DNA from: a virus
Direction: 5' to 3' (one strand)
Virus genome (UHGV): UHGV-1374671
DNA: 64,000 nt
The translations under genes and the position numbers were made by a program. Below are positions 13,169 to 52,386 of this stretch, in pieces (within the stretch, counting starts at the first letter, position 1; each line of letters starts with the position of its first letter). Under the pieces are notes generated by a model, which worked only from the letters and a program-made list of their open reading frames with translations, searched no databases and was not told where the DNA came from.

Positions 13169-16100
13169 ATGGATGATATCAACGTGACGCCTGTTTTGGC
13201 GGACAGCTCCACAGTGGAGAACATTCAGGTTCGCCCGCAGCGTCCTCCCAAAACGGCAGCTGACTGGGTGCGCGACATGCGCATGTCTCCTGAAGTGAAC
13301 AAGACCACTGTCGGTGTGGAGACGGACCGGATAACTCCTGAGTTGCTGATGGCCACGTCGTCCAAGCTGCTTGGTATCTCCAGACGGGAGCAGGATCCGG
13401 ATCCCAAGGATTCCCTGCTCTTCCAGCGCTTCTACGGGCCGGCCGAATACTTTGCAGAACACATTCTGCGGGACGGCAACAAGGTGGCCCGTAACCTGCT
13501 GTGGAAAGCAACCAACAAGGGCAAGATTGACTTCGTACCGTCAGGAGCATTGGATCAGCACGTCAGCGATGTGTTCTACAGCAGCAAGCTGGCCCAGATG
13601 ATCGACGGGTCGTCTCCTTTGGAAACGGTGGACGCTTCCTTCAAGACCACCCGTATCGGCGAGGGCGGCGTCGCAGATGTGCAGTCGGCTCCTGATGAGA
13701 TGCGTACAGTGCAGCCTTCCTACTTCGGATACCTAGACTCCGTGCGCTGCTATTCGGACGATACCGAACTCATGACCAAAAATGGCTGGAAATTCGTTAC
13801 CGATATTACGGAAGACGATGAGCTTGCATGTTATATGGACGGCAGGTTGGAGTACCACAAACCAACCGCATTGAATGTATACGACTACAAGGGCAAGATG
13901 TACGGATACAAAGGTACGCATATCTCGTACCTGGTGACACCGAATCACCGGATGCATTCCAGATGTTATGGAGAACTCAGAGATGGGCGTCCTTGTGGTT
14001 ATAACATTCGTACAGCTGAGAGCATTCACGGTAAGAACAGGGTTGTAGATTCTGCCTGCCATTTGCCGTTACTGTGCAATGAGGATCAGAAATACTTTGA
14101 GCTCCCTGTGGTAGGTCCTAATCTGAAGAAAGAGCAGGTTCATGGCAATCCGCCAATGGGCGCCAGCTTGAAGAACGTGGACAAAGTGGACATCGTGAAG
14201 TTTGCCGAGTTCCTCGGATGGTACCTGGCTGAGGGTTCCTATGTGATCAATGAAACCAAAGGATACTACCGCGTTGATATTGCACAGTCCCCGGAAGTCA
14301 GTGCGGAAAACTACGAGCATATCAGACAGCTGATAGAATCTCTTCCCTTCAACGCAACCAATCCAGGTGCCGAGGAAAAAGCAAAAAGGGGCGGGCATGC
14401 CTTGTCCATCGCCAGAAAACAGCTGACCATATACGTCAGTCAGTTTGGAAAGTGCGAAGACAAGTACATACCTGAGTGGATTTTCTCAGCTCCGTTACAG
14501 GCCCGCAAAGCGTTTTGTTGGGCCCTTCTGCAAGGAGATGGACGGGAACAGAGACATCTCTGCACAAAGTCAAAGCGACTGGCTACTGACTTTGCCCGCC
14601 TGCTTTTTGAATTGGGTGAATCTGCCAAAGTATACCACGAAAAAGAAACCAGATATGAAAACCATCCTGGTATCTGGAATGTTTACTGGCACACCCGCAA
14701 AGAACGTCTTTTGGCTGGAAAAACACATAAGCACAAGGAAGGTGAATATTTCACTGAAGACTATACCGGCAAAGTGTACTGCCCGACCATACCTGGCGGT
14801 CTGGTGTACTGCCGCAGAGGCGAAAAGAGCGTTGGTTTCTGGTGCGGTAATAGTCCGGAGAGGTTACGCGTCGGATTGGATATGTATATGACCAAGAATG
14901 TGGTCAAGGGATCCGATGGAAAGCTGTACCAGAGATTCATCAACGCGCGTACCGGCAAGGAGGAGCTGGTTGACTCCGTAACAGCTTCCAGATCCATTGT
15001 GGCAGCGCCTGAGATGATGGACGCCGATACCAAGTCCATCTTCGCTCTTGGTGGTCGTACTGGCGTACGTATCGTACCCAAGGATAAGGTTGATTATTAT
15101 TTACCCAGAGCCGACGATGCGTACAGCATGTCGTCCAATATGGTGCCCATGTTCAATGGTGTGAAGGAAATGCGCCTGCTGATGGGATGCCTGCATCCGG
15201 GTACTCCGTTGATCACCATATCGGCGAAGAACGAGATCAACATCAAGCCGGCGAAATCCATTGGCAAGAATGCTTATGGAGTGCCTGGCTGCGATGCCAA
15301 AGGCAAGTCGCTGGGGTATCTGATCCGTAACAGCATTGCCAAGTTTCCCCAGAAGCGCAAGTGGTTCAAGAAGGTCGTGCTGATGTCGGGGCGGTCCCTG
15401 ATCACCAGCTACGATCACAGATGGCCAGTGCTGCGGGACGACAAGCTGGAGCTGGTGAACGCATCCGATCTTCAGCCCGGGGACAAGGTGCTCAGATCCA
15501 CGTTCAAGGATCTGCCCAATCGACGCACCTTTTTGCGCGGCGTACTGGTGAACAAGGATGTTGCCACGCTGCTGGGCTGCATCGTAAGGTCGGTCACCAA
15601 ACCTGACCCGGACAAGCTCCGGGTGGTGTACCAGCCTTCTCAGAAGAAGTTCATCGAGGCAGCCATCGAACGGCTCAAACTGGAGAACTCCCGCTTCTAC
15701 GCCAATGCCGGCGAGAAGTGCCTTGCCATTCATGACAGCAACTTCATCCAGTGGGTGGAGAAGGAGATCTGTCTGGAGCCGGAAGAGCGCAAGGTCCCCA
15801 CTGTGATTCTCAGTGCGTGCCTGGACATTGCGTCTCACTTCATCGACGCTTACACGGCCGACACCACCAAGGTCGGCATCGACAGCAACGAGGACATGTG
15901 GATCCTGGATATCCCCAGCATGATCTGCCGTGACGGTCTTGCGTTGCTGCTTGCCAGAATGCAGACGGATACCCTGTACCGGGATGCTGTGCGGGCAGAC
16001 GGAGTCAATCTGGCGTTGAAGCTGGTGGAACAGACCCCCACCTTCGGGGATTCCATTGTGGACGAGGTGAAAATTATACTCGAAGTAGAAAAGGTCCCGC

Positions 16101-19100
16101 TCATGATTGACATCGATATCGATGACAACATGTATGCGACCGCCAATGGAATCATCACACACAACTCCAAGTACCCGTTGCAGGCCATCTCCCTGCTGGA
16201 GCGGGAAGCTCCTTTGGTGAGAGGGCTGGATGAGGCGTCCGGCAGGGACATCCCGTCGTTGGCAGGCAAGTATCTCGGCGCCAGATTCGCCAACCAGGGC
16301 GGCACCGTCACCGCTGTGCGCAAGGACCGCATCGACGTCGTCTACGACGACGGCACCAAGGGCAGCGTTTCCCTGTACCAGAATTTCCCGATGAACGCCA
16401 AGGGGTACATCACCAACACGCCTGTGGTGAAAGCGGGACAGTCCTTCAAGAAGGGAGATGTATTAGCGGCGTCGAACTATACAGACGACAAAGGCGTGGC
16501 GGCCATCGGCAAGAATCTGAGATCCGGCTGGCTGTCCTGGAAGGGCGGCACCTATGAAGACGCTGTTGTAATCTCCGAATCAGCCGCCAAGAAGTTGACC
16601 AGCCGTACCATGTACAAATCGGCAGTCGACCTCGACAAGACAGTCAGTTTGGGAAAGAAGAACTACGTCTCCTGGAAGCCGTCCGAGTACACCAAGGACC
16701 AGCTGTCGGCGCTGGATGACAACGGAATCATTAAGCCGGGTTCCGTGCTTCGCAAAGGAGACCCGATGATTCTGGCGGTGCAGACATCCGAACCCTCTCC
16801 CGGGACGCTTGGCAAGCGCGTGCTGACGGATATCTCCGAGACCTGGGAACACGACCATCCGGGTGTGGTCACTGACGTGGTCAAGACCAGGAAGGGTGTG
16901 AAGGTGTTTGCCATTGTGGAAGCACCTGCGGAAGTGGGGGACAAGGTAAGCGGGAACTTCGGCAACAAGGGAGTAGTCTCGCAGCTTGGTAGAGAGTCCC
17001 AGGAAGAACAGGACGACGAGAACCAGGACTTCCAGATCCAGAAGATCGTACCGGACGCCATGATGCCCATTGGAGAGGACGGCAAGCCTCTGGATCTGCT
17101 GTTCAGTCCTCTTGGGCTTATCTCCCGTACGAACGCTTCCCAGATCCACGAGGCTCTTCTGGGCAAGATCGCCCGTAAGACTGGAAAACCGTTCGTCATG
17201 CCGGCCTTCTACAAGGGCGACCTTACGGAGTTCGTGGAGAACCAGCTGAAACAGAACAAGGTCAGCGACACGGAAGACCTGACGGATCCTTATACCGGCA
17301 GGAAGATCCCCAAAGTGCTGACCGGTGTGTCGTACATCTACAAGCTCAAGCACCAGGCCGAGTCCAAGCTGTCCGCACGCGGTACTGCCGAGTACACTGC
17401 CGAGGGCACGCCGGGTGGTTCTGGACTCACTGGGAGCAAAAGGTACGGAACTTTGGAGCAGTCCGCGATGGTCGGCCACGGTGCGTTTGACAACCTGCTT
17501 GATGCGAAACTCCTGCGTGGCCAGTCGAACTCGGATTTCTGGCGCAGCATCCGTACTGGAGAGATCCCGACGATTCCTGGAGAGCCCCTGGTGCACAAGA
17601 AGTTCTTCGCCCACCTTACAGGCTCCGGTGTGAACGTGCGCAAAACCCCGAAGGGCATCAGCGTGTTCTCGTTGTCCAACGACGATGTGAAAGAACTTGC
17701 CGGCCCCCGTGAGCTGAAATCCAAGGACACCTACGAAGCCAAGACATTCCGTCCCATCGATGGAGGACTCTTTGGTCAGGACCTGTTCGGCCCCAATGGA
17801 GACCGCTGGGCATACATCCAGCTGGACGAACCTCTGCCGAACCCTGTAATGGAGGAGCCTCTGGCGCGTCTTCTCAGAATGTCCACCAAGGACTTCATGG
17901 CAGTGGCCGCCGGCAAGGCTGAAGTGAATGGAATGAAATCCTCCGCCGACATCAAGGAACGCCTGTCCAGGATCAACTTGAAGGCCGAGGAACAGCAGGC
18001 CAAGCAGGAGTTCAAGGACGCCCCGATGTCTAAGAAGGACGCGGCGCTGAAGCGTTATCGGGACATCGCCCGCATGGCTGCGAATGAAGTGTCCCCTGAC
18101 CAGTACATGCTGGATAGGATTCCGGTGCTGCCTCCTGTCTTCCGTCCTGTCAGTACGCACAACGGACTGACCATGGTGGCCGACAGCAACTACCTGTATG
18201 CGCAGATGCTGGACGCCAGAGACGACGCCCGGGAAGCCCGCAACCTGCCCAAGGAATACCAGCAGCAGGCCAGGGAAAACCTGTACCGAAGCTGGAAGGA
18301 GCTGACCGGCATGTACGAGCCCGAGAACGTGAAGCTGAAGAACAAGCACGTGCGGGGGCTTCTGAAGTGGGCGCTTGGTGACAGTCCAAAATGGTCCGCG
18401 TTTCAGAGAAAGGTATTGGGCTCCACGGTGGACACGGTAGGCCGTGGTGTTATCACTCCGGATCCGCGCCTGAAGCTGAACCAGCTCGGCGTTCCTCTGC
18501 CGATGGCGTTGGGCATCTATGAGCCGTTCGTTGCTCGATCCATGGTCAAGCAGGGGTACTCTCCTGTGGAAGCCATGAAGATGATCAAGGTCCAGGACAA
18601 GCGCGTGATACCAGTGCTGCTTAACGTGATGAAGAACAGCCCTGTGCAGCTGAATCGGGCACCTTCGCTCCACAAGCTGAACATCATGGGATTCGAGCCT
18701 GTGCTCACTGCCGGGCACGCTGTCCGGGTAAACCCGTCCATTGTGGTGCCCTTTGCGGCGGACTTCGACGGCAACTGCTGCGATTTTGATAGTGTAATTT
18801 TCCTAAAATTATCAAAATCTGCGCTTGAAAAAACTGCTTTTATGTGCTATGTTGATCATAGTAACAAACCCGAACAAAACAAGGAGGTTTCTATGATCAC
18901 GGAAGACACAAGAGTCGTGGTGTTCAACCCGGATGAGACTGACCCGGATACTGTGTACTGCTCTATGAAGATCGGGGAGTTCCCGCGTAAGGGGGTGCCG
19001 GTGAAAGACCGGAACGGTGCTTTGGTGTACCCGGTTCCAGAAGGGGTAAGCGTACTGTCCTGCGACCCAGTTACAGGTGCTCCGAAGTTCTGCCCTGTGT

Positions 19101-20542
19101 CGGCTGTAACAGTGGAGGAGAACTGCCATACGGTAGAGTTGACTCTCGGCAGCAGAAAGATCATCGTGTCGGATAACGAATCCCTGGCCGCGTTCGACAG
19201 CAAGGCAGGTACGTTGATCAAAGTGTCCCCGGCAGAGATCGGAGATCGGATGATTCCTGTTCTGAAAAAGCAGCAGCTGCCATATGGCCCGTTCGGCACC
19301 AGGGACCTCGGCTGGATGTTCGGTGCGTTCATCTCCGATGGCTGGGTCACGCACAATATGGTGGGATACGCCAAAGTGGAAGCCAACAAGCGTGCTGAGT
19401 TCGTCAGGATCATGCGTGCGTATCACGAGAACTTTACTTGCAACGAATACACTGATCGTCCGCAGGCTGGAAAGAACAAGTTGGGCGCCTCCGTTAAGTT
19501 GCACCTGTGCAGCAAATCCCTGGCAGACTGGATGCGCAACTGGCAGCTCATAAACGAGGACTGTCCTGCGGCAGAGCGTGCTGCGCTGCGGAAGCAGATA
19601 AACAGCAAGATGATTCAGTACGGCTCCGAGGACTTCCTGTGGGGGCTGTTCTCCGGTCTCCTGGACGGTGACGGGTCCATCAGCAAAAACACGACGATGG
19701 AGAAGCCGCGCTTTACAGCCAGATTCAGCACCTCCAGCAAACAGCTGGCGGACGACATCTGCGCACTGTGTTATCGACTGGGTCTGCGTTACTCCATGAC
19801 CGTGGTACCTCCCAGAGGATTCTCCAATACGGCATACATCATCATCCCGTCCACTATTGACTTGCATGCCAAGCTGGACAAGCTCACCTGTATTGGTGAG
19901 CGGGAGATTCAGCTTATCTCGGAATGGAAGCAGCAGCCGTCGTACAAAGACACCAAAGACATGATCCCGCTGTCTGTTAAAGAAGCGGAAGTGCTGATTA
20001 AGCTGGCGAACGCCAGGAAAGACGTAGGAGTGTCCTCCGGGATCTACAAGACTAGAAAGAAGTCCTGTATCTACGGTGGTCGTGTTGGGCTGATGCGTTA
20101 CTGCGAGGAAATCAAGGAGATGTTCCCTGAGTTATACGCCCGTATTAAAAACGAGGACACCATTTGGCAGACTGTCACTTCCGTGGAGGACGCCGGCAAT
20201 CGCCAGGTGTTCGACTTGATGGTTGAGGGTACGAAAGTGTTTGCCATCAACAACGGCGTGATTATCTGGGACACCGCCAACGTGCACGTACCGGTATCCG
20301 ACAACGCCAGACGGGAGACCTATGAGAAGATGTTCCCGGAACGCAATCTGATCTCCATGCGTGAGCGCAAGGTGCTGTACAAGCCCGAAAAGGAGTACAT
20401 GCAGGGGATCTACGTGGCGACCCGCATGAAGAAGGGCAAGGATGTCCGACCGAAGATCTTCGGATCTGTGGAAGAAGCGCGTCAAGCGTTACGCAAGGGC
20501 ATTATTGATATTGATGATCCTATTGAAATACGCAAGCAATAA
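13169..20542 (+). CDS. RNA polymerase beta (C-terminal half) fused to beta-prime N-terminal half; precursor carrying two inteins
   Basis: GDKVSGNFGNKGVVSQ...PLDLLFSPLG matches beta GDKMAGRHGNKGVIS...NPLGVPSRMN. NRAPSLHKLNIMGFEPVL...AADFDG...NVHVP matches beta-prime NRAPTLHRLGIQAFEPVL...NADFDGDQMAVHVP. Ends after an IYVATRM segment that aligns with E. coli LYYMTR. Confidence 0.8.
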   Translation: MDDINVTPVLADSSTVENIQVRPQRPPKTAADWVRDMRMSPEVNKTTVGVETDRITPELLMATSSKLLGISRREQDPDPKDSLLFQRFYGPAEYFAEHILRDGNKVARNLLWKATNKGKIDFVPSGALDQHVSDVFYSSKLAQMIDGSSPLETVDASFKTTRIGEGGVADVQSAPDEMRTVQPSYFGYLDSVRCYSDDTELMTKNGWKFVTDITEDDELACYMDGRLEYHKPTALNVYDYKGKMYGYKGTHISYLVTPNHRMHSRCYGELRDGRPCGYNIRTAESIHGKNRVVDSACHLPLLCNEDQKYFELPVVGPNLKKEQVHGNPPMGASLKNVDKVDIVKFAEFLGWYLAEGSYVINETKGYYRVDIAQSPEVSAENYEHIRQLIESLPFNATNPGAEEKAKRGGHALSIARKQLTIYVSQFGKCEDKYIPEWIFSAPLQARKAFCWALLQGDGREQRHLCTKSKRLATDFARLLFELGESAKVYHEKETRYENHPGIWNVYWHTRKERLLAGKTHKHKEGEYFTEDYTGKVYCPTIPGGLVYCRRGEKSVGFWCGNSPERLRVGLDMYMTKNVVKGSDGKLYQRFINARTGKEELVDSVTASRSIVAAPEMMDADTKSIFALGGRTGVRIVPKDKVDYYLPRADDAYSMSSNMVPMFNGVKEMRLLMGCLHPGTPLITISAKNEINIKPAKSIGKNAYGVPGCDAKGKSLGYLIRNSIAKFPQKRKWFKKVVLMSGRSLITSYDHRWPVLRDDKLELVNASDLQPGDKVLRSTFKDLPNRRTFLRGVLVNKDVATLLGCIVRSVTKPDPDKLRVVYQPSQKKFIEAAIERLKLENSRFYANAGEKCLAIHDSNFIQWVEKEICLEPEERKVPTVILSACLDIASHFIDAYTADTTKVGIDSNEDMWILDIPSMICRDGLALLLARMQTDTLYRDAVRADGVNLALKLVEQTPTFGDSIVDEVKIILEVEKVPLMIDIDIDDNMYATANGIITHNSKYPLQAISLLEREAPLVRGLDEASGRDIPSLAGKYLGARFANQGGTVTAVRKDRIDVVYDDGTKGSVSLYQNFPMNAKGYITNTPVVKAGQSFKKGDVLAASNYTDDKGVAAIGKNLRSGWLSWKGGTYEDAVVISESAAKKLTSRTMYKSAVDLDKTVSLGKKNYVSWKPSEYTKDQLSALDDNGIIKPGSVLRKGDPMILAVQTSEPSPGTLGKRVLTDISETWEHDHPGVVTDVVKTRKGVKVFAIVEAPAEVGDKVSGNFGNKGVVSQLGRESQEEQDDENQDFQIQKIVPDAMMPIGEDGKPLDLLFSPLGLISRTNASQIHEALLGKIARKTGKPFVMPAFYKGDLTEFVENQLKQNKVSDTEDLTDPYTGRKIPKVLTGVSYIYKLKHQAESKLSARGTAEYTAEGTPGGSGLTGSKRYGTLEQSAMVGHGAFDNLLDAKLLRGQSNSDFWRSIRTGEIPTIPGEPLVHKKFFAHLTGSGVNVRKTPKGISVFSLSNDDVKELAGPRELKSKDTYEAKTFRPIDGGLFGQDLFGPNGDRWAYIQLDEPLPNPVMEEPLARLLRMSTKDFMAVAAGKAEVNGMKSSADIKERLSRINLKAEEQQAKQEFKDAPMSKKDAALKRYRDIARMAANEVSPDQYMLDRIPVLPPVFRPVSTHNGLTMVADSNYLYAQMLDARDDAREARNLPKEYQQQARENLYRSWKELTGMYEPENVKLKNKHVRGLLKWALGDSPKWSAFQRKVLGSTVDTVGRGVITPDPRLKLNQLGVPLPMALGIYEPFVARSMVKQGYSPVEAMKMIKVQDKRVIPVLLNVMKNSPVQLNRAPSLHKLNIMGFEPVLTAGHAVRVNPSIVVPFAADFDGNCCDFDSVIFLKLSKSALEKTAFMCYVDHSNKPEQNKEVSMITEDTRVVVFNPDETDPDTVYCSMKIGEFPRKGVPVKDRNGALVYPVPEGVSVLSCDPVTGAPKFCPVSAVTVEENCHTVELTLGSRKIIVSDNESLAAFDSKAGTLIKVSPAEIGDRMIPVLKKQQLPYGPFGTRDLGWMFGAFISDGWVTHNMVGYAKVEANKRAEFVRIMRAYHENFTCNEYTDRPQAGKNKLGASVKLHLCSKSLADWMRNWQLINEDCPAAERAALRKQINSKMIQYGSEDFLWGLFSGLLDGDGSISKNTTMEKPRFTARFSTSSKQLADDICALCYRLGLRYSMTVVPPRGFSNTAYIIIPSTIDLHAKLDKLTCIGEREIQLISEWKQQPSYKDTKDMIPLSVKEAEVLIKLANARKDVGVSSGIYKTRKKSCIYGGRVGLMRYCEEIKEMFPELYARIKNEDTIWQTVTSVEDAGNRQVFDLMVEGTKVFAINNGVIIWDTANVHVPVSDNARRETYEKMFPERNLISMRERKVLYKPEKEYMQGIYVATRMKKGKDVRPKIFGSVEEARQALRKGIIDIDDPIEIRKQ
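13748..16165 (+). mobile_element. intein 1 (806 aa) with LAGLIDADG homing endonuclease, inserted in the beta subunit
   Basis: Starts CYSDDTELM (block A) with TPNH (block B). LAGLIDADG blocks LGWYLAEGS and WALLQGDGRE. Ends NGIITHN before +1 Ser. Confidence 0.8.
16073..16092 (+). promoter_or_regulatory. dyad motif copy 1 (AATTATACTCGAAGTAGAAAA), followed by palindrome CATCGATATCGATG
   Basis: Sequence match to the motif family; sits in frame inside intein 1 (KIILEVEK). Confidence 0.45.
18784..18817 (+). repeat. AT-rich interrupted palindrome (ttttgata-gtg-taatttt-cct-aaaatta-tcaaaa)
   Basis: 8-bp and 7-bp paired arms; local GC about 30% versus about 58% genome-wide. Confidence 0.6.
18825..18853 (+). 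promoter_or_regulatory. sigma70-like promoter TTGAAA-N17-TATGTT embedded in frame in the intein 2 coding sequence
   Basis: Exact -35 TTGAAA (18825-18830), 17-nt spacer, -10 TATGTT (18848-18853). Followed by SD AAGGAGG (18881-18887) and in-frame ATG 18893. Confidence 0.5.
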
Positions 20543-20562
20543 CCCGAAGTGAGGCACAGCAT

Positions 20563-20751
20563 ATGCAGAGTATGAGACATCTCTACGGACTCGACAAACA
20601 GGCGGCTCAGAAGAAACAGGCCTTCGCCAAGAAGCTCGCCGACTTCATGCGTCACCAGCGCATGGAGGCGCAGCAGAAAGCCGCTGCTGCCGTCGAACGC
20701 GGTAAGAACAACGTCCTGGCCATGATCCGTCAGGCCTGCAACAGCAAATAA
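20563..20751 (+). CDS. small basic protein (62 aa) sharing N-terminal RHLYGL motif with the next gene
   Basis: MQSMRHLYGLDKQAAQ compared with MSEKYRHLYGLGKAAV; RBS gaggca. Confidence 0.5.
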   Translation: MQSMRHLYGLDKQAAQKKQAFAKKLADFMRHQRMEAQQKAAAAVERGKNNVLAMIRQACNSK

Positions 20752-20762
20752 GGAGCGCGGCA

Positions 20763-21746
20763 ATGAGTGAGAAATACAGACATCTCTACGGACTGGGTAA
20801 AGCGGCTGTGGCTGTACTTACTCCGGAAGCAGAGCAAGCGGCTGTTCAGCCTCCGATGGACCCTGCCATGGCTGGCGGCGCTCCTCCGATGGATCCGATG
20901 GCGGCCGGAGGAATGCCTCCGCAGGGCGGCGCTGGAGCTCCTCCGATGGGTGGCGCTCCGATGCCGCCGCCGGCAGGCGGACAGATCCCGCCGGAAATCC
21001 TCCAGGACCAGATGTTCATCCAGTTTCTGCAGGAGGCGCTGGGGGTGTCCCTTGATCCGGCGTCGGGCATGTTCATGGGCCCGAATGGCGAACAGATCCC
21101 GCCCCAGCTTATCATTGAGGCCTACCAGGAGTTCCAGACGATGCAGGCCCAGGGCGGCATGCCGCCTGCAGGAGCTGGGGCTCCGCCTGCGGCAGGCATG
21201 GATCCGGCTATGGCAGCAGGTGGTGCTCCGATGCCGGCAGGAGCCCCGCCGATGGATCCCATGGCTGCGGGAATGCCTCCGGAAGCGGCTGGTGGAGTTC
21301 CTCCGGAAATGGGAGGAACCCCTGAAGAAGTGCCTCCGGAAATGGGCGCTGCACCTGAAGCAGGTGCTCCTGCGCCGGCTGCTGGACCGGAAGCGATGAT
21401 GCAGGAACTGCTGTCTGGAGTAGAGGCCGTGCTGCAGTCCTTCTCCGGAAAGCTGGACAAGCAGCTCAGTGCCATCCAGGACAAGATCGAGGCTCTGAAG
21501 ATGGATGTCGAATCACTGCGGGACACCACGGACCAGCGCACCAAGATGGAAGAGGACGAGGCTGCCCGTATCCGGGAAGAGCTGGAAGCAGAGCTTGTGC
21601 CCACCGCCGTTGCCCAGAAGGAGGCCAGCATTTCCATTCCGGCTCCGCAGCCGATCAAGATGCCGACCGTTGAGAACAAGCCGAGCACCAGGAAGCGTAC
21701 CGGCACTCCGAACCTGTTCTCCGTGATCCAGGGAGGAAAACGATGA
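20763..21746 (+). CDS. Pro/Ala/Gly/Met-rich repeat protein with C-terminal coiled coil
   Basis: Two copies of the module [PAGM-rich]-(Q)IPP(E/Q)(I)L...QEF; RBS aaggag. Confidence 0.65.
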   Translation: MSEKYRHLYGLGKAAVAVLTPEAEQAAVQPPMDPAMAGGAPPMDPMAAGGMPPQGGAGAPPMGGAPMPPPAGGQIPPEILQDQMFIQFLQEALGVSLDPASGMFMGPNGEQIPPQLIIEAYQEFQTMQAQGGMPPAGAGAPPAAGMDPAMAAGGAPMPAGAPPMDPMAAGMPPEAAGGVPPEMGGTPEEVPPEMGAAPEAGAPAPAAGPEAMMQELLSGVEAVLQSFSGKLDKQLSAIQDKIEALKMDVESLRDTTDQRTKMEEDEAARIREELEAELVPTAVAQKEASISIPAPQPIKMPTVENKPSTRKRTGTPNLFSVIQGGKR

Positions 21747-22585
21747 ACTATATCGAAGTACAGAAGATGCGGAAAGAAGCCGCATCGGAATCCAGTCTTG
21801 ACAAGTTCTTGATGAATCACGAGACTCTCGGCAAGCCCTACATGGAAAAAATGTCACCGCAGGAAATGCTGTATCACGGCGTAGGGGCCGTGGGCGGTGG
21901 AGCCCTCGGTTACATGCTGTCTCGTATGATCCATCGTAAGCCCAGCGGCATGCTGCGCGCCCTGTATACGCTGGGAGGCGCGGCTGCCGGTGGTGTTGCC
22001 CCGTACTATCTGCTGCGGGCCAAGAAGGATGAACAGGGGCTGACGGAAGCGGATCGCATGCGCCTCCAGGACGCTTGGGCGCATGCGCCCAAGGCACTGC
22101 AGGAAGCGCGCAATCAGGCAGAGGGACTGAAGCCCAATGGTGAGGAGCTGCCCAACGAGAAACCTATTCAGACCCGTATCGCGGATGCTATTCCCGGCAA
22201 TATATGGTGGTACGGCGGTGCTGGTGCGGCCATCGATGCCGGCAGATTCGCAAAAGAGCGTCTTAACATTTTTGAGCAGAACCGGAAGCTCCAGCCGAAC
22301 GAAGTGAAAGTAACGGTTAAGCCTCCCAAAGGCAAACCTACGACCACCACTACAACCGAGACTGCTGCCGAGAAACCGTATCCGCGTTTCTTCCCCACAA
22401 AGGAAGAGTTCAAGAAGACACCTGTGGCCGCTACCAACTACACGTTGTTTAAGCGCCTCAGAGGTACACTTGGCGGCGTCACGTTAGGTACGGTACTGGC
22501 GCTTCTCCGCAGCAAGGCAGGAGACAATCAAGTTCTTGACCCGCTGTCCAAGGAGAACTTGGACCAAGCGCTGCAGAACAAGTAA
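21743..22585 (+). CDS. hypothetical protein with Gly-rich hydrophobic segments
   Basis: ATGA overlap with upstream gene; GVGAVGGGALGYMLS and GGAAAGGVAPYYLL. Confidence 0.6.
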   Translation: MNYIEVQKMRKEAASESSLDKFLMNHETLGKPYMEKMSPQEMLYHGVGAVGGGALGYMLSRMIHRKPSGMLRALYTLGGAAAGGVAPYYLLRAKKDEQGLTEADRMRLQDAWAHAPKALQEARNQAEGLKPNGEELPNEKPIQTRIADAIPGNIWWYGGAGAAIDAGRFAKERLNIFEQNRKLQPNEVKVTVKPPKGKPTTTTTTETAAEKPYPRFFPTKEEFKKTPVAATNYTLFKRLRGTLGGVTLGTVLALLRSKAGDNQVLDPLSKENLDQALQNK

Positions 22586-22600
22586 GCAGAAACAGGGATT

Positions 22601-24907
22601 GTGACCATGTTGACGACACTGGGCAGAGAACTGATTCGGGCAAAGCTCCCCGAGAAGTACAAGGGGTACGCGGATCAGGTTCTGGACAAGAAAACACTGA
22701 CCAATCTGATGACCGAGATCGCCAGAGAGGATCCGGAAGGGTACATCGACGTTCTGCAGGATCTCAACAACATTGGACAGGAAGTCGTGTCCACATACGG
22801 ACGGGACACCTCGCTCTCGTATGCAGACCTGAAAGTCGACAATGAGATCAAAGCCCTGAACAAGCGCCTGCGGCAGGTCATCAAGGGAGTCCTCAATGAC
22901 GATTCCCTTACCAGCGAGCAGAAGGAAGAGAAGATCAAGGAACTGGGATACAAGTACACGCAGAAGGTGCAGGACGCGGTATTCCAGGACAACGACAAGC
23001 GAGGAACGTCGCTGGCCTCCCAGATCAACTCAGGCTCTCGTGGAAATAAAACCCAGTTGATGCAGCTCCAGTTCGGCAACATGCTGATGAAAGATGCACT
23101 CAACCGGGACATTCCTTATCTGATGATAGACCCGTTCGTCCATGGTGCGTCACCGATGTCGTACTGGGTGTCCGCGTCCAGTGGGCGCAAGGGGTTCTTC
23201 GATGTGCAGGCCGCCACCGGACAGGCCGGATATCTGGGCAAGCAGGTGACAGCCGCCACACACAGAACCACCATTGAGAAAGAGGACTGCGGCACCACCG
23301 ACACCGGAGTGCCGTTTCCTGCCAACAGCACGAAGAACGTGGGCGCGGTTCTGCTGCGCCCCTTCCACAAATACCCGGCAGGCACGGTTGTCACTGAGAA
23401 GATGGTTGCCGAGGCCGATGACGACGAGGAGATGATTCTGCGCAGTCCAACCACCTGCAAGTGCAAGGACGGCATCTGCGCCAAGTGCAATGGGCTGGGA
23501 GAGAATGGGAAGTTTCCGGCAGTGGGCGAGTATGTGCCGCTGAATGCTGCGCGTTCTTTTGTTGAGCCGGTTACGCAAGGAGGGATCTCGTGTCTGCATC
23601 CTGGAACACAGGTACGTATGGCAGACTGGTCTATCAAAGCACTGCGTGATATCAGGGTAGGCGATCGCGTTATGGGCGTTCACACCGATGGTTCTTATGA
23701 ACCCGCCCTCGTCACCCGGACGTTCGATAATGGCATTGTTCCGATGTACTTGACAAAGTTCCGTAAGGGCACTGATAAGATTGCCGTGCTGATGTCCACC
23801 ACATGTCACAAAATGCTCTTATCTGTCGACGGGGATGCTCCTGCCATTCTTCCTGTAGGTACAGATGGCCAGCTCAGCGCGTGTCAGACTATCGGACCTG
23901 CAGGGTATACTGATAAGCAGATTAAGATGTCACACTTCAAACGCATCTCTCAGGAATATATCGGAGACATGCAATCGCTGGATATTGAGATCGACAACGA
24001 CTCCCATCTGTTTCTGTTGGCCAATGGCCTGGTGGTTTCCAATTCCAAACATGGCGCGGGTATTGGAGGCAAGCGATGGGTCGATCCCGAGGGGCCTGAC
24101 CAGCCGCACGGGTTCCGTGCCCTTGAGCGTCTGTTCATGGCTCCCAGCAACTTCCCGGGCGGAGCCGTACTTGCCCCGCAGGACGGCACGGTAAGCAACA
24201 TTCAGAAGGCCTCCCAGGGCGGCCATTACATCACGGTGGGCAACAAGACGCTGTACTGCTCTCCAGATCGCACTATGAAAGTCAAAGTCGGGGACAAGGT
24301 GTCCGCCGGCGACGTACTTACCAATGGTGTGCCCAATCCTGCCGAGGTGATGGATCTCAAAGGACTGGGAGAGGGCCGGCATTACTTCGTCAACAAATTG
24401 AACGAAACCTTGAAGGCACAGGGCTGGGCAACAGACCGCAGAAATATCGAGGCGTTTACACGCAGCATGATTAGTAAGGTCAAAATCACCGACCCTGACG
24501 GATACAAGTCGTATCTGCCTGGTGATATTGCCGATTACAACGAGATCATGGCTGACTGGGAGCCCAGGGAAGGATCCGTCACAGTGAAAGCGGATCAGGC
24601 GCTGAACAAGTACCTGGAGAAACCGACCCTGTACTTCAGCGTCGGCACCAGGATCACCCCGTCAGTTGTGCAGCAGTTGAAGAAATACAAGTTTGATACT
24701 GTGACGGTGTCGGATAAGGAGCCTCCTTTCAAAGCTCAGTTCCTGCGTCCTGCTGTTGTGCTGCAGAACGACAAGAACTGGTTGCCCAGGCTGGCGGGAG
24801 AGCGGCTGCAGCCAGCACTGTTTGATGCAGCGCAGAAGGGCATCACCGACGAGTACGACTCGCCGAGTTACGTTGACAAAATCGTGGCGGCGCCATTTAA
24901 ACCATAA
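22601..24907 (+). CDS. RNA polymerase beta-prime C-terminal half; precursor carrying a mini-intein
   Basis: N-terminus continues the beta-prime alignment (GRELIRAKLPEKY...YADQVL compared with E. coli GRAILWMIVPKGLPY...FADQIM). AARSFVEPVTQGGIS|intein|SKHGAGIGG compared with [23 protein letters not shown]. Confidence 0.8.
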   Translation: MTMLTTLGRELIRAKLPEKYKGYADQVLDKKTLTNLMTEIAREDPEGYIDVLQDLNNIGQEVVSTYGRDTSLSYADLKVDNEIKALNKRLRQVIKGVLNDDSLTSEQKEEKIKELGYKYTQKVQDAVFQDNDKRGTSLASQINSGSRGNKTQLMQLQFGNMLMKDALNRDIPYLMIDPFVHGASPMSYWVSASSGRKGFFDVQAATGQAGYLGKQVTAATHRTTIEKEDCGTTDTGVPFPANSTKNVGAVLLRPFHKYPAGTVVTEKMVAEADDDEEMILRSPTTCKCKDGICAKCNGLGENGKFPAVGEYVPLNAARSFVEPVTQGGISCLHPGTQVRMADWSIKALRDIRVGDRVMGVHTDGSYEPALVTRTFDNGIVPMYLTKFRKGTDKIAVLMSTTCHKMLLSVDGDAPAILPVGTDGQLSACQTIGPAGYTDKQIKMSHFKRISQEYIGDMQSLDIEIDNDSHLFLLANGLVVSNSKHGAGIGGKRWVDPEGPDQPHGFRALERLFMAPSNFPGGAVLAPQDGTVSNIQKASQGGHYITVGNKTLYCSPDRTMKVKVGDKVSAGDVLTNGVPNPAEVMDLKGLGEGRHYFVNKLNETLKAQGWATDRRNIEAFTRSMISKVKITDPDGYKSYLPGDIADYNEIMADWEPREGSVTVKADQALNKYLEKPTLYFSVGTRITPSVVQQLKKYKFDTVTVSDKEPPFKAQFLRPAVVLQNDKNWLPRLAGERLQPALFDAAQKGITDEYDSPSYVDKIVAAPFKP
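23591..24043 (+). mobile_element. intein 3 (151-aa mini-intein) in the beta-prime trigger-loop region
   Basis: CLHPGTQVRMADWSIKALRDIRVGDRVMG (block A), TTCH (block B), ends NGLVVSN before +1 Ser. Confidence 0.8.
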
Positions 24908-52044: not shown

Positions 52045-52386
52045 GCCGGTACGATTCGCAGATTCGCCAAAGACCCGAAGAATCTGGGAAACAAACAGGC
52101 ATGGAGATTTCTGCAGCGCAGAGCAAGGCTTTCTGTGAGCTGGGACGGTTTCCGCGCCGGCGGCGTGGATAATATGGAGCTGCTGTCCCAGATGCGACTG
52201 GGGGCGTATACTTCAGTCAACGACACCATATCCTCCGGGCCTTCCGGCAACGACATCACCACGGACAAAATTCTGGAAATGGATCCGAAGGAACGGGATG
52301 ACTGGTTCATCAGAATCTGCGACTCGGTGGGTGTCAAAGTTGACCCGGAAGCATTGATAAATGCACGTAAGGGTACGCAACAGTGA
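51994..52386 (+). CDS. frameshift extension (GT-like C-terminal part), not independently initiated
   Basis: No ATG or RBS; in -1 frame relative to 51278..52018; ends 4 nt into the tape-measure candidate. Confidence 0.45.
   Translation: MGRYRVSLILAMPEFDTAGTIRRFAKDPKNLGNKQAWRFLQRRARLSVSWDGFRAGGVDNMELLSQMRLGAYTSVNDTISSGPSGNDITTDKILEMDPKERDDWFIRICDSVGVKVDPEALINARKGTQQ

What the first reader, a model, noticed from the sequence alone, without database searches (positions are those of the whole stretch)
18784..18895. Low-GC hairpin-promoter-SD-ATG cassette embedded in frame inside intein 2
Immediately after the intein N-terminal block A, about 110 nt drop to roughly 30% GC. They contain four elements in order: an interrupted palindrome (ttttgata-gtg-taatttt-cct-aaaatta-tcaaaa), an exact TTGAAA-N17-TATGTT promoter, a strong AAGGAGG SD, and an ATG 5 nt later in the main frame (MITEDTRVVVF...). 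The segment is stop-free, so it is translated as part of the precursor. It also looks like a fully functional transcription and translation start for independently expressing the downstream intein/endonuclease portion. This could represent an internal promoter for the homing endonuclease, a fossil of a free-standing endonuclease gene that invaded the intein, or a regulatory hairpin operator.
Basis: seen in the sequence. Interest (0 to 1): 0.8.

Follow-up and report, generated by a model that had tools for sequence, protein, structure and literature searches.

The report
Conserved internal start inside phage intein
A self-splicing insert (intein) in a phage RNA-polymerase gene carries, in frame, its own promoter-like site, ribosome-binding site and start codon at the point where two related phages have the gene physically split, so the endonuclease-bearing part of the intein can probably be made on its own.

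Summary
Window 18776-18895 is the lowest-GC stretch of the 64-kb window and is stop-free. It holds a hairpin, TTGAAA-17-TATGTT (TG-extended), AAGGAGG and an in-frame ATG (M1909). It lies inside a 499-aa LAGLIDADG intein (18776-20272) that interrupts the DFDGD catalytic loop of a fused beta-beta' phage RNA polymerase.

Taken alone, the promoter match (9/12) and the SD+ATG are not beyond chance. About 18 divergent relatives (35-55% aa identity) decide it. All cassette-bearing relatives keep an SD plus an in-frame ATG at the same structural position. Eight or nine keep a -35/-10 pair at a fixed offset with a 17-nt spacer, built from rare synonymous codons. Synonymous sites are AT-biased and unusually conserved. 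Two relatives (L020, L028) are split into two ORFs exactly here.

The segment encodes the catalytic N-terminal strand (Cys1). A second, Cys-less copy of that strand follows the ATG, and AlphaFold places either one.

Best reading: a conserved split-site expression module lets the Hint/endonuclease/C-extein piece be made separately. The role of that piece is inferred. This is a new variant of known kinds (atypically split inteins, fractured genes).

Side finding: the residue before the intein is Asn, replacing the third catalytic Asp.

The parts
18776..20272 (+). Intein 3 of ORF 13169-20542 (C1870..D2368, 499 aa): Hint fold with a nested LAGLIDADG endonuclease, inserted in the DFDGD loop of the RNAP beta' part
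   Evidence: Pfam Intein_splicing and LAGLIDADG_3. AlphaFold pLDDT 82; Foldseek matches to the TliVMA, PI-PfuI and PI-SceI inteins, E = 1e-19 to 1e-12. The intein-less allele L005 aligns up to 18772 and resumes at 20270.
18773..18775 (+). Codon AAC (Asn1869) at the intein -1 position, in place of the third catalytic Asp of DFDGD
   Evidence: Intein-less alleles read DFDGD|T (P0012/L005, P0122-P0127) or DYDGD|A (Vibrio phage D181). Every intein-bearing relative examined reads D.DGN|C.
18776..18832 (+). Catalytic N-terminal module (IntN-like): CCDFDSVIFLKLSKSALEK = Cys1, block A strand and a short helix
   Evidence: The family motif C-x-DFD[ST]-x-I-x-L-x-[LI]-SKS-x-L is conserved. AlphaFold of the full piece gives strand 19-25 and helix 26-31 at pLDDT about 76.
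18777..18824 (+). Hairpin IR1 (core arms 18782-18791 / 18810-18819), ending 5 nt upstream of the -35
   Evidence: RNA fold -14.9 kcal/mol, z = -4.1. Also significant in L008, L012, L007, L013, L020 and L018. Co-occurs with the promoter. Covariation is not beyond shuffles.
18825..18853 (+). Sigma-70-type promoter-like site: TTGAAA, 17 nt, TG-n-TATGTT. The predicted start of transcription is about 18860 (inferred from the usual distance, not measured).
   Evidence: Scan hit. The same offset (49 nt from the Cys1 codon) and the same 17-nt spacer hold in L006 and L012 (TTGACA/TATATT, 11/12), L008, L007, L013, L018, L020 and L027. Rare CTT, GTT and ATT codons build the hexamers.
18853..18899 (+). 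Second inverted repeat IR2, TGATCATAG (18853-18861) / CTATGATCA (18891-18899). On a read-through RNA it pairs the start codon. Its 5' arm lies at or upstream of the predicted transcription start.
   Evidence: z = -1.8. The analogous pairing of SD/AUG is predicted in most relatives, but is above a shuffled-upstream control in only 3 of 13.
18881..18887 (+). Shine-Dalgarno AAGGAGG, 5 nt before the ATG
   Evidence: AAGGAG-like, 5-9 nt before the aligned ATG, in all cassette lineages. The codon pair is AAG-GAG (K-E) against the local AT bias: GAG in 9 of 10.
18893..20542 (+). Internal ORF M1909..stop (549 aa, 62.0 kDa). It comprises a Cys-less second block-A strand (MITEDTRVVVF, 18893-18925), the rest of the Hint fold, LAGLIDADG motifs at 19322-19348 and 19652-19681, the intein end W-D (20267-20272) and an 89-aa C-extein.
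   Evidence: Six database proteins (P0001, P0003, P0006, P0007, P0008, P0010) start at this Met. AlphaFold of this ORF alone gives pLDDT 86, with the N-terminal strand now ordered at pLDDT 76.

Best explanation
The segment is a translated 'split-site expression module' of an endonuclease-bearing intein.

Its first 19 codons encode the catalytic N-terminal piece (Cys1, first strand, short helix). The next 20 codons are a structurally dispensable linker. The DNA of the helix codons and the linker carries a host-type (sigma-70-like) promoter, an A/C-rich leader, a strong ribosome-binding site and an AUG. The AUG opens a second, Cys-less copy of the first strand, followed by the rest of the Hint fold, the LAGLIDADG endonuclease and the C-extein.

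Two products are therefore expected:
(1) The read-through precursor, which uses the first strand and Cys1 and splices in cis.
(2) A separately initiated 62-kDa polypeptide. It folds as a complete Hint/endonuclease body using its own strand. It cannot perform the N-terminal splicing steps, and it may shed the 89-aa C-extein by C-terminal cleavage.

I favour the view that product 2 uncouples the supply and timing of the homing endonuclease from the 2457-aa polymerase precursor. In the two split relatives the same start is what makes the C-half.

Shown: the anatomy; conservation of SD+ATG in all cassette lineages and of the promoter in a subset; nucleotide-level selection; the existence of both split and contiguous members.

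Inferred: that the promoter fires; that the AUG is used in the contiguous gene; what product 2 does.
For: (a) Conservation across about 18 lineages at 35-55% aa identity. An in-frame ATG preceded by an AAGGAG-like SD at 5-9 nt sits at the same structural position in window, L002-L004, L006-L009, L012-L014, L018, L020-L022, L025, L027, L028, L099 and L103. The residues around the Met are not conserved, and AlphaFold gives this stretch pLDDT below 50.

(b) Promoter. The -35 lies at offset 49 and the -10 at offset 72, with exactly 17 nt between them, while the spacer sequence is free: L006 and L012 11/12; L008 and L027 10/12; window, L007, L013 and L020 9/12; L018 8/12. L099 has an analogous pair, TTGTTA-16-TATATT, at other offsets.

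(c) Nucleotide-level selection. Cassette GC3 is 0.26 against 0.73 expected from the gene's own codon usage (P < 0.0002). Low total GC is significant at P < 0.05 in all 12 lineages, and low GC3 in 11 of 12. Leu is CTT (7-13% usage in the GC-rich lineages) in 6 of 9 promoter-bearing lineages. Synonymous-codon identity between lineages is 0.50 in the cassette against 0.33 in the rest of the intein (Mann-Whitney p = 5e-4).

(d) The gene is truly broken here in L020 (TGA overlapping ATGA) and in L028 (23-nt overlap). The frames differ, and stops lie just upstream in the ATG frame. The two are 42% identical to each other and both keep LAGLIDADG motifs.

(e) L015/L023 have the same intein with the endonuclease but no cassette. 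Their Cys1 sits exactly where the window has M1909, so the strand after the ATG is the ancestral first strand.

(f) AlphaFold orders CCDFDSVIFL and leaves MITEDTRVV disordered in the precursor piece. It orders MITEDTRVVVF when the ORF starts at M1909.

(g) The mini-intein P0013 has lost the endonuclease and also lacks the linker, SD and Met.

(h) The position matches the known natural atypical split sites with IntN of 15-37 aa (PMC13014065).
Against: - No transcript or protein data exist.
- In the window alone, the promoter (9/12) and the SD+ATG are within chance.
- About five lineages (L009, L014, L021, L025, L022) have no convincing promoter, so promoter activity is not universal.
- The -35 and the hairpin overlap conserved peptide motifs (L-E/D; DFDS/LSKS). 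Part of their conservation could therefore be protein-driven, and hairpin covariation is not above shuffles.
- L015 shows that an endonuclease-bearing member can do without the cassette.
- Product 2 lacks Cys1, and its benefit is conjecture. The link to endonuclease retention rests on one mini-intein whose DNA could not be read.
- Occlusion of the SD/AUG on long transcripts is only weakly supported.
- AlphaFold used a 14-row alignment, and only confidence and secondary structure were available, not coordinates.
Confidence: 0.6

Rival explanations
1. Evolutionary scar. The family was once split (or 'fractured' by a free-standing endonuclease gene that brought its own promoter, hairpin, SD and ATG). 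The halves re-fused in frame, and in the window the signals are inert leftovers that are merely translated.
For: Split members exist. The fractured-gene model predicts control elements (hairpins, promoter elements) left upstream of the C-half even after the endonuclease gene is lost (PMC2677866). The promoter and hairpin have decayed in several lineages.
Against: An inert scar should not stay AT-biased at synonymous sites in 12 of 12 lineages. It should not keep rare codons for the hexamers or show raised synonymous identity. It should not keep the Met and SD in every lineage at divergences where synonymous sites are otherwise scrambled. In a rough NJ tree the split members form one clade beside the contiguous ones rather than being basal.
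Confidence: 0.2
2. Protein- or RNA-level constraint only. The conserved features serve the precursor: the first strand and helix, a flexible linker, and an mRNA hairpin or internal SD that slows ribosomes so that the N-extein and intein fold in order. The resemblance to a promoter and a start site is then a by-product.
For: The hairpin arms and the -35 coincide with conserved peptide motifs. The region from the -35 to 24 nt past the ATG folds more stably than shuffles in all 13 lineages (mean z = -1.9).
Against: The conserved Tyr (TAT) of the -10 and the invariant Met lie in a stretch with pLDDT below 50 and free neighbours. The fixed 17-nt spacing with free sequence is a promoter signature. 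K-E is always AAG-GAG against the local AT bias. The same ATG is a real start in the split relatives.
Confidence: 0.1
3. Trans-splicing partner. The internal start makes an IntC-C-extein piece that is ligated to an N-piece in trans, as in the split relatives, so that the polymerase subunit is assembled from two polypeptides in this phage too.
For: Split relatives must work this way. The split point matches natural atypical split sites.
Against: The window has no stop codon, so no defined N-piece is made. The C-piece carries its own first strand, which would have to be displaced.
Confidence: 0.06
4. Chance: an AT-rich patch that happens to contain consensus-like strings.
For: The single-sequence statistics for the promoter and the SD+ATG are unremarkable.
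Against: The same architecture recurs in about 18 divergent lineages with synonymous-site constraint.
Confidence: 0.02

Closest known systems
Naturally atypically split inteins with a short N-fragment (AceL-TerL, GOS-TerL, VidaL, PolB16)
   Same: The break point is close to the N-terminus, after the first strand(s) and helix. Known IntN length is 15-37 aa (PMC13014065). Here the N-module is 19 aa plus a 20-aa linker, and 35 aa (L028) or 46 aa (L020) in the split relatives. The origin is phage or metagenomic.
   Different: The window gene is not split: the split-site linker is translated. The C-piece keeps a full LAGLIDADG endonuclease and a Cys-less duplicate of the first strand. To my knowledge neither is described for the known atypical split inteins. 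Trans-splicing is untested.
'Fractured genes' of Dassa et al. [quoted passage not shown]
   Same: Phage enzymes broken inside an intein. Control elements (hairpins, promoter elements, SD, ATG) sit at the break, and start/stop overlaps occur. The model explicitly allows re-creation of a contiguous gene (PMC2677866).
   Different: There is no free-standing endonuclease gene here; the endonuclease is an in-frame domain at the usual site. The break is at the N-terminal atypical site. The promoter is sigma-70-like, not a T4/Aeh1 late element. The control elements are read through as protein.
Class 1 endonuclease-containing inteins (PI-SceI, PI-PfuI, TliVMA)
   Same: Hint fold with a nested LAGLIDADG domain; Cys1; Thr+1; precise absence in a near-identical allele.
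   Different: The intein ends in Trp-Asp, not His-Asn. There is no block B His (VSDNES) and F:13 is Lys. The -1 residue is Asn in place of a catalytic Asp. The first strand is duplicated, with an expression cassette between the copies. Inteins ending in Asp, Gln or Glu are known to use the same scheme (PMC4031507).
Phage intron- or free-standing endonuclease genes with their own promoter and a hairpin that sequesters the ribosome-binding site (Aeh1 mobE as cited in PMC2677866; T4 I-TevI from my own knowledge)
   Same: A selfish endonuclease expressed from its own promoter inside or next to an essential gene. In the window, a 9-bp repeat pairs the AUG with sequence at the predicted transcription start.
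   Different: There the reading frame is separate from the host gene; here it is the same frame. Occlusion of the start site is only weakly supported statistically.

Membership tests
Intein (class 1, endonuclease-containing) | Hint fold with a nested homing-endonuclease domain | tested here: met
   Pfam PF14890 and PF14528. AlphaFold pLDDT 82. Foldseek matches to the TliVMA, PI-PfuI and PI-SceI inteins, E = 1.8e-19 to 3e-12. Two LAGLIDADG motifs with acidic residues.
Intein (class 1, endonuclease-containing) | Nucleophile at intein position 1 and at C-extein +1 | tested here: met
   Cys1870 and Thr2369. Cys1 is conserved in all relatives and +1 is Thr (Ser in one relative).
Intein (class 1, endonuclease-containing) | C-terminal Asn with penultimate His; block B Thr-x-x-His | tested here: not met
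   The intein ends W-D (Y-D in some relatives). Block B is V-S-D-N-E-S, without His. A terminal Asp is an accepted variant of the class 1 scheme (PMC4031507), so this lowers but does not exclude membership.
Intein (class 1, endonuclease-containing) | In-frame insert precisely absent from an otherwise near-identical host gene | tested here: met
   L005/P0012 aligns to window 17448-18772 (92.7% nt identity) and 20270-22709 (94.4%) and reads DFDGD|TANVH.
Intein (class 1, endonuclease-containing) | Protein splicing actually occurs and yields an active host protein | not testable with these tools
   Needs expression and mass spectrometry. Canonical splicing would give DFDGN-T, which raises the question of polymerase activity.
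Atypically split intein (short IntN) | N- and C-parts encoded by separate ORFs | tested here: not met
   The window ORF is continuous. The feature is met in relatives L020 and L028. An apparent third case (L102-L104) is a TAG-recoded phage and is contiguous.
Atypically split intein (short IntN) | Break close to the N-terminus, IntN 15-37 aa (S1/S2 sites) | tested here: met
   The cassette follows the first strand and a short helix. There are 39 codons from Cys1 to the Met; IntN is 35 aa in L028 and 46 aa in L020. Definition from PMC13014065. The exact S1 or S2 assignment could not be made without model coordinates.
Atypically split intein (short IntN) | Trans-splicing of the two pieces | not testable with these tools
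   Needs co-expression of the N-piece and the C-piece.
Fractured gene (Dassa et al. 2009) | Free-standing endonuclease gene between the two intein halves | tested here: not met
   Only 20 linker codons lie between the N-module and the Met. The endonuclease is an in-frame domain.
Sigma-70-type promoter | -35 and -10 hexamers with a 16-18 nt spacer | tested here: met
   TTGAAA-17-TATGTT with a TG extension, 9/12. On its own this is not above chance.
Sigma-70-type promoter | Conservation of hexamers and spacing in relatives beyond what coding requires | tested here: met
   Fixed offset and a 17-nt spacer in 8-9 lineages, up to 11/12. Rare codons are used. Synonymous identity is raised. The feature is absent in about 5 lineages.
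Sigma-70-type promoter | Transcription start about 7 nt downstream of the -10 | not testable with these tools
   Needs 5' RACE or dRNA-seq.
Hairpin-occluded translation start with internal promoter (I-TevI / mobE type) | SD/AUG paired on long transcripts and free on the promoter-proximal transcript | tested here: inconclusive
   In the window, unpaired probability of the start region is 0.37 on the long RNA and 0.58 from the predicted start. The region folds with z < 0 in 13 of 13 lineages (Stouffer -7.0). Against a shuffled-upstream control it is significant in only 3 of 13.

The most novel reading that the evidence does not exclude
The family is a natural dual-mode intein. The C-piece, made from its own promoter and start, is kept folded and inert by a built-in decoy copy of the first strand (a natural 'caged' IntC). 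It can either act as a free homing endonuclease or accept the Cys1-bearing N-strand by strand exchange. Lineages then move between cis- and trans-splicing by gain or loss of a single stop or frameshift.

Separately, the invariant Asn(-1) / terminal-Asp pair may mean one of two things. Either the spliced polymerase works with DFDGN, or an unrecognised step restores the catalytic Asp.
Probability: 0.15. Interest if true: 0.9.

Novelty: new variant of a known kind. Interest (0 to 1): 0.68.

Why it matters
Inteins are normally thought to need no expression signals of their own, because the endonuclease is made stoichiometrically with the host protein. A conserved in-frame promoter, ribosome-binding site and start inside an intein would show that a selfish element can set its endonuclease dose and timing independently of an essential gene.

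The family also contains contiguous and split members that differ only at this cassette. That makes it a concrete, testable system for how split inteins arise or re-fuse, an open question raised by the fractured-gene model.

Practically, an atypical split site with a short N-piece and a possibly self-caged C-piece is of interest for protein ligation tools.

The Asn-for-Asp replacement in the polymerase catalytic triad, seen in every intein-bearing allele examined, poses a direct biochemical question about either polymerase catalysis or splicing chemistry.

Tried and rejected
1. Near-identical DNA search in the phage collection: no match. A protein search found only 25-30% identical polymerases of cultured phages of 154-220 kb (Vibrio D181, Salmonella Arash, Rhizobium RHph).

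2. First impression that six relatives are split because their proteins start at the Met: rejected for L002, L003, L004 and L027. These contigs simply begin 39-118 nt upstream and the frame is open to the edge.

3. Apparent split in P0132/P0133 (ORF ends '..LY*'): rejected. L102-L104 belong to a TAG-recoded phage. All in-frame stops are TAG, at positions where homologues have E or D, and the two ORFs are in the same frame.

4. Repeat of the cassette elsewhere in the window: none.

5. The cassette as a mobile module in other genes: a pattern scan of IMG/VR gave 70 hits, of which only one is a family member.

6. Rfam: no family.

7. Hairpin covariation: one pair shows UA8/CG4/UG2 with no mismatch (Fisher p = 0.015). 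This is confounded by GC content, and the whole-structure score is not above shuffles.

8. Start-site occlusion: tested against shuffled upstream sequence and only weakly supported. An earlier version of this script timed out.

9. Programmed frameshifting in L020: no slippery site. The ATGA overlap fits translational coupling (reasoned).

10. DNA of the mini-intein P0013 could not be fetched.

11. Literature search for inteins with internal promoters or starts: nothing relevant.
Full report
**What is there**

ORF 13169-20542 (+, 2457 aa) is a fused beta-beta' RNA polymerase (Pfam Rpb2_6, Rpb1_2). Three inteins interrupt it: 13748-14851, 15188-16165 and 18776-20272. The window belongs to an uncultured phage. 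Its polymerase is only 25-30% identical to those of cultured phages of 154-220 kb.

The finding lies at the start of the third intein (C1870..D2368). This intein carries two LAGLIDADG motifs. Its AlphaFold model (pLDDT 82) matches the TliVMA, PI-PfuI and PI-SceI inteins.

An intein-less allele from a 93-94% identical phage (L005/P0012) reads AADFDGD|TANVH. It aligns to the window up to 18772 and again from 20270. The intein is therefore a recently mobile insert in the catalytic DFDGD loop.

**Check of the observation**

The stretch is the lowest-GC 80 nt of the window, 0.275 against 0.55 overall.

The hairpin is stable beyond shuffles (z = -4.1). The promoter match is 9/12 and is no more frequent than chance in this sequence. 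A strong SD followed by an in-frame internal ATG occurs twice in the window. The single sequence therefore does not prove function.

Two details need correcting. The AT-rich DNA itself encodes block A (CCDFDSVI). The Met opens a second block-A-like strand (MITEDTRVVVF).

**Relatives**

A protein search found 14 family members. Six of them start exactly at the Met. For the four whose DNA I could read and whose contigs are truncated there (L002, L003, L004, L027), the frame is open upstream to the contig edge. The gene caller simply preferred the strong SD+ATG. A fifth, P0010 (L028), proved genuinely split (see below); the contig of P0006 was not fetched.

Further loci came from IMG/VR, JGI metagenomes, a MAG and encoding contigs. 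About 18 distinct lineages carry the cassette, at 35-55% aa identity.

- **SD and ATG.** All have an AAGGAG-like SD 5-9 nt before an in-frame ATG at the same structural position.
- **Promoter.** Window, L006, L012, L008, L007, L013, L018, L020 and L027 have a -35 at 49 nt and a -10 at 72 nt from the Cys1 codon. The spacer is exactly 17 nt and its sequence is free. Matches reach 11/12: TTGACA/TATATT in L006 and L012. L009, L014, L021 and L025 lack a convincing pair, and L022 has only a displaced one.
- **Hairpin.** It is significant in seven of the eight promoter-bearing lineages tested and in none of five others at the same cut-off (Fisher p = 0.005).

**Selection on the DNA itself**

I resampled synonymous codons from each gene's own usage. 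The cassette is far more AT-rich than its peptide requires. In the window, GC3 is 0.26 against 0.73 expected (P < 0.0002). Low total GC is significant in all 12 lineages, and low GC3 in 11 of 12.

The hexamers are built from disfavoured codons: Leu CTT at 7-13% usage, and GTT/ATT. At columns with a shared amino acid, pairwise codon identity is 0.50 in the cassette against 0.33 in the rest of the intein (p = 5e-4). K-E upstream of the Met is AAG-GAG, with GAG in 9 of 10, against the local AT bias.

The conserved Tyr (TAT) of the -10 and the invariant Met lie in a stretch that AlphaFold leaves disordered, at pLDDT below 50. These facts argue that nucleotides, not only residues, are under selection.

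**Split and cassette-less members**

In L020 the upstream ORF (at least 625 aa) ends ...DYDGN|CTDFDSTVRVRIPKSALDEF...KAS with a TGA that overlaps the ATG of MTEDRKIVQV (ATGA). In L028 the upstream ORF ends 20 nt past the ATG.

In both, the two ORFs are in different frames and stops lie directly upstream in the ATG frame. Neither a simple indel nor stop-codon recoding can join them. The two C-ORFs are 42% identical and both keep LAGLIDADG motifs.

An apparent third split (L102-L104) is a TAG-recoded phage and is contiguous.

L015/L023 have the same intein with the endonuclease but no cassette. Their Cys1 is followed directly by VIYTSMVMM..LQIGEFP, which places Cys1 exactly where the window has M1909. 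The strand after the ATG is therefore the ancestral first strand, and the CCDFDS..SKSALE module plus linker is an addition upstream of it.

The mini-intein P0013, which has lost the endonuclease, also lacks the linker, SD and Met.

**Structure**

For the precursor piece, AlphaFold orders CCDFDSVIFLKLSKSALE as a strand plus helix at pLDDT about 76. It leaves the linker and MITEDTRVV below 50. For the ORF starting at M1909, the N-terminus becomes a strand at pLDDT 76, and the whole model scores 86.

The fold thus appears able to use either copy. Only the first copy carries the nucleophile. The alignment had 14 rows and I could not inspect coordinates, so this is supportive rather than decisive.

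**Mechanism proposed**

The cassette sits at the natural 'atypical' split site of inteins; IntN of 15-37 aa is known (PMC13014065). It provides a start for the C-piece.

In the window the linker is read through, so the precursor can splice in cis. In addition, a 62-kDa Cys-less Hint/endonuclease/C-extein protein is expected from the internal promoter and/or the internal ribosome-binding site.

I favour endonuclease supply that is independent of the 2457-aa precursor. This step is inference.

A 9-bp repeat (18853-18861 / 18891-18899) would pair the AUG on read-through RNA but not on RNA started at about 18860. Similar pairings are predicted in most lineages. They are only weakly above a shuffled control.

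**Comparison with what is known**

The closest precedents are the atypically split inteins and the 'fractured genes' of Dassa et al. In the latter, hairpins and promoter elements accompany endonuclease genes at intein breaks, and re-fusion is envisaged (PMC2677866).

Three features differ here: in-frame, conserved, translated control elements; an endonuclease domain retained in the C-piece; and a duplicated first strand. I found no report of an intein with its own internal promoter or start. I rate this a new variant of known kinds.

**Unexplained side finding**

Every intein-bearing allele examined has Asn at -1, where intein-less alleles have the third catalytic Asp. Every one ends the intein in Trp/Tyr-Asp and lacks the block B His. 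Canonical splicing (PMC4031507) would leave DFDGN in the polymerase active site.

Noticed in passing
window 18773-18775 and 20267-20272; all intein-bearing relatives: The residue before the intein is Asn, where intein-less alleles have the third catalytic Asp of DFDGD. The intein ends Trp-Asp instead of His-Asn. Block B (VSDNES, 19166-19195) has no His. Canonical splicing would leave DFDGN-T in the polymerase active site.
   Followed up: partly
window 13748-14851, 15188-16165, 18776-20272: Three inteins lie in one 2457-aa fused beta-beta' polymerase ORF. The first two have ordinary ends (..CGN|S, ..THN|S) and no comparable AT-rich cassette.
   Followed up: partly
L005 (P0012) vs window 17448-18772 and 20270-22709: An intein-less allele exists in a phage 92.7-94.4% identical in the flanks. 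The intein was therefore gained or lost recently and the endonuclease is probably active.
   Followed up: yes
L002 nt 1, L003 nt 1, L004 nt 1, L027 nt 1: Four independent metagenome contigs begin at or inside the cassette, 39-118 nt upstream of the ATG. Possible causes are intein presence/absence polymorphism, low coverage of AT-rich DNA, or mosaic cassettes. The cause is not established.
   Followed up: no
L102-L104 (P0133): This relative uses TAG as a sense codon. All in-frame stops are TAG, at positions where homologues have E or D. One TAG sits inside the cassette, right after the Tyr codon of the -10 region.
   Followed up: partly
P0125, P0128, P0130, P0131, P0137: Close relatives carry a different element at the same site. 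DFDGD is followed by S-[IV]-[WL]-N-[MT]..IVID, and in four of the five the ORF ends 12-30 aa later (in P0131 after about 60 aa). This could be a Ser1 split intein with a short N-piece, or an intron. Here the -1 residue stays Asp.
   Followed up: no
P0131 N-terminal half: P0131 carries yet another intein (LAGLIDADG, ending ..VLVSGN|S) at a site (SPKW|SAFQRK) that is uninterrupted in the window. The polymerase gene of this phage group is a hot spot for inteins.
   Followed up: no
window 53437-53450: A second AAGGAGG-N4-ATG lies in frame inside ORF 52383-55304 (973 aa). GC is normal there and no conservation check was made.
   Followed up: no
L100 1058-1675 (Vibrio phage D181): An annotated free-standing homing endonuclease gene lies immediately upstream of the homologous polymerase gene of this cultured phage.
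   Followed up: no
P0014, L016, L017, L026: More distant members of the same insertion-site family have an ordinary block A (CIIGSS.., CLIGTT.., CVKVGT..) followed by other, unrelated 20-70-aa insertions before the conserved IGEFP helix. P0014 even contains a DFDSV segment plus an M-KITKNTRV strand.
   Followed up: no
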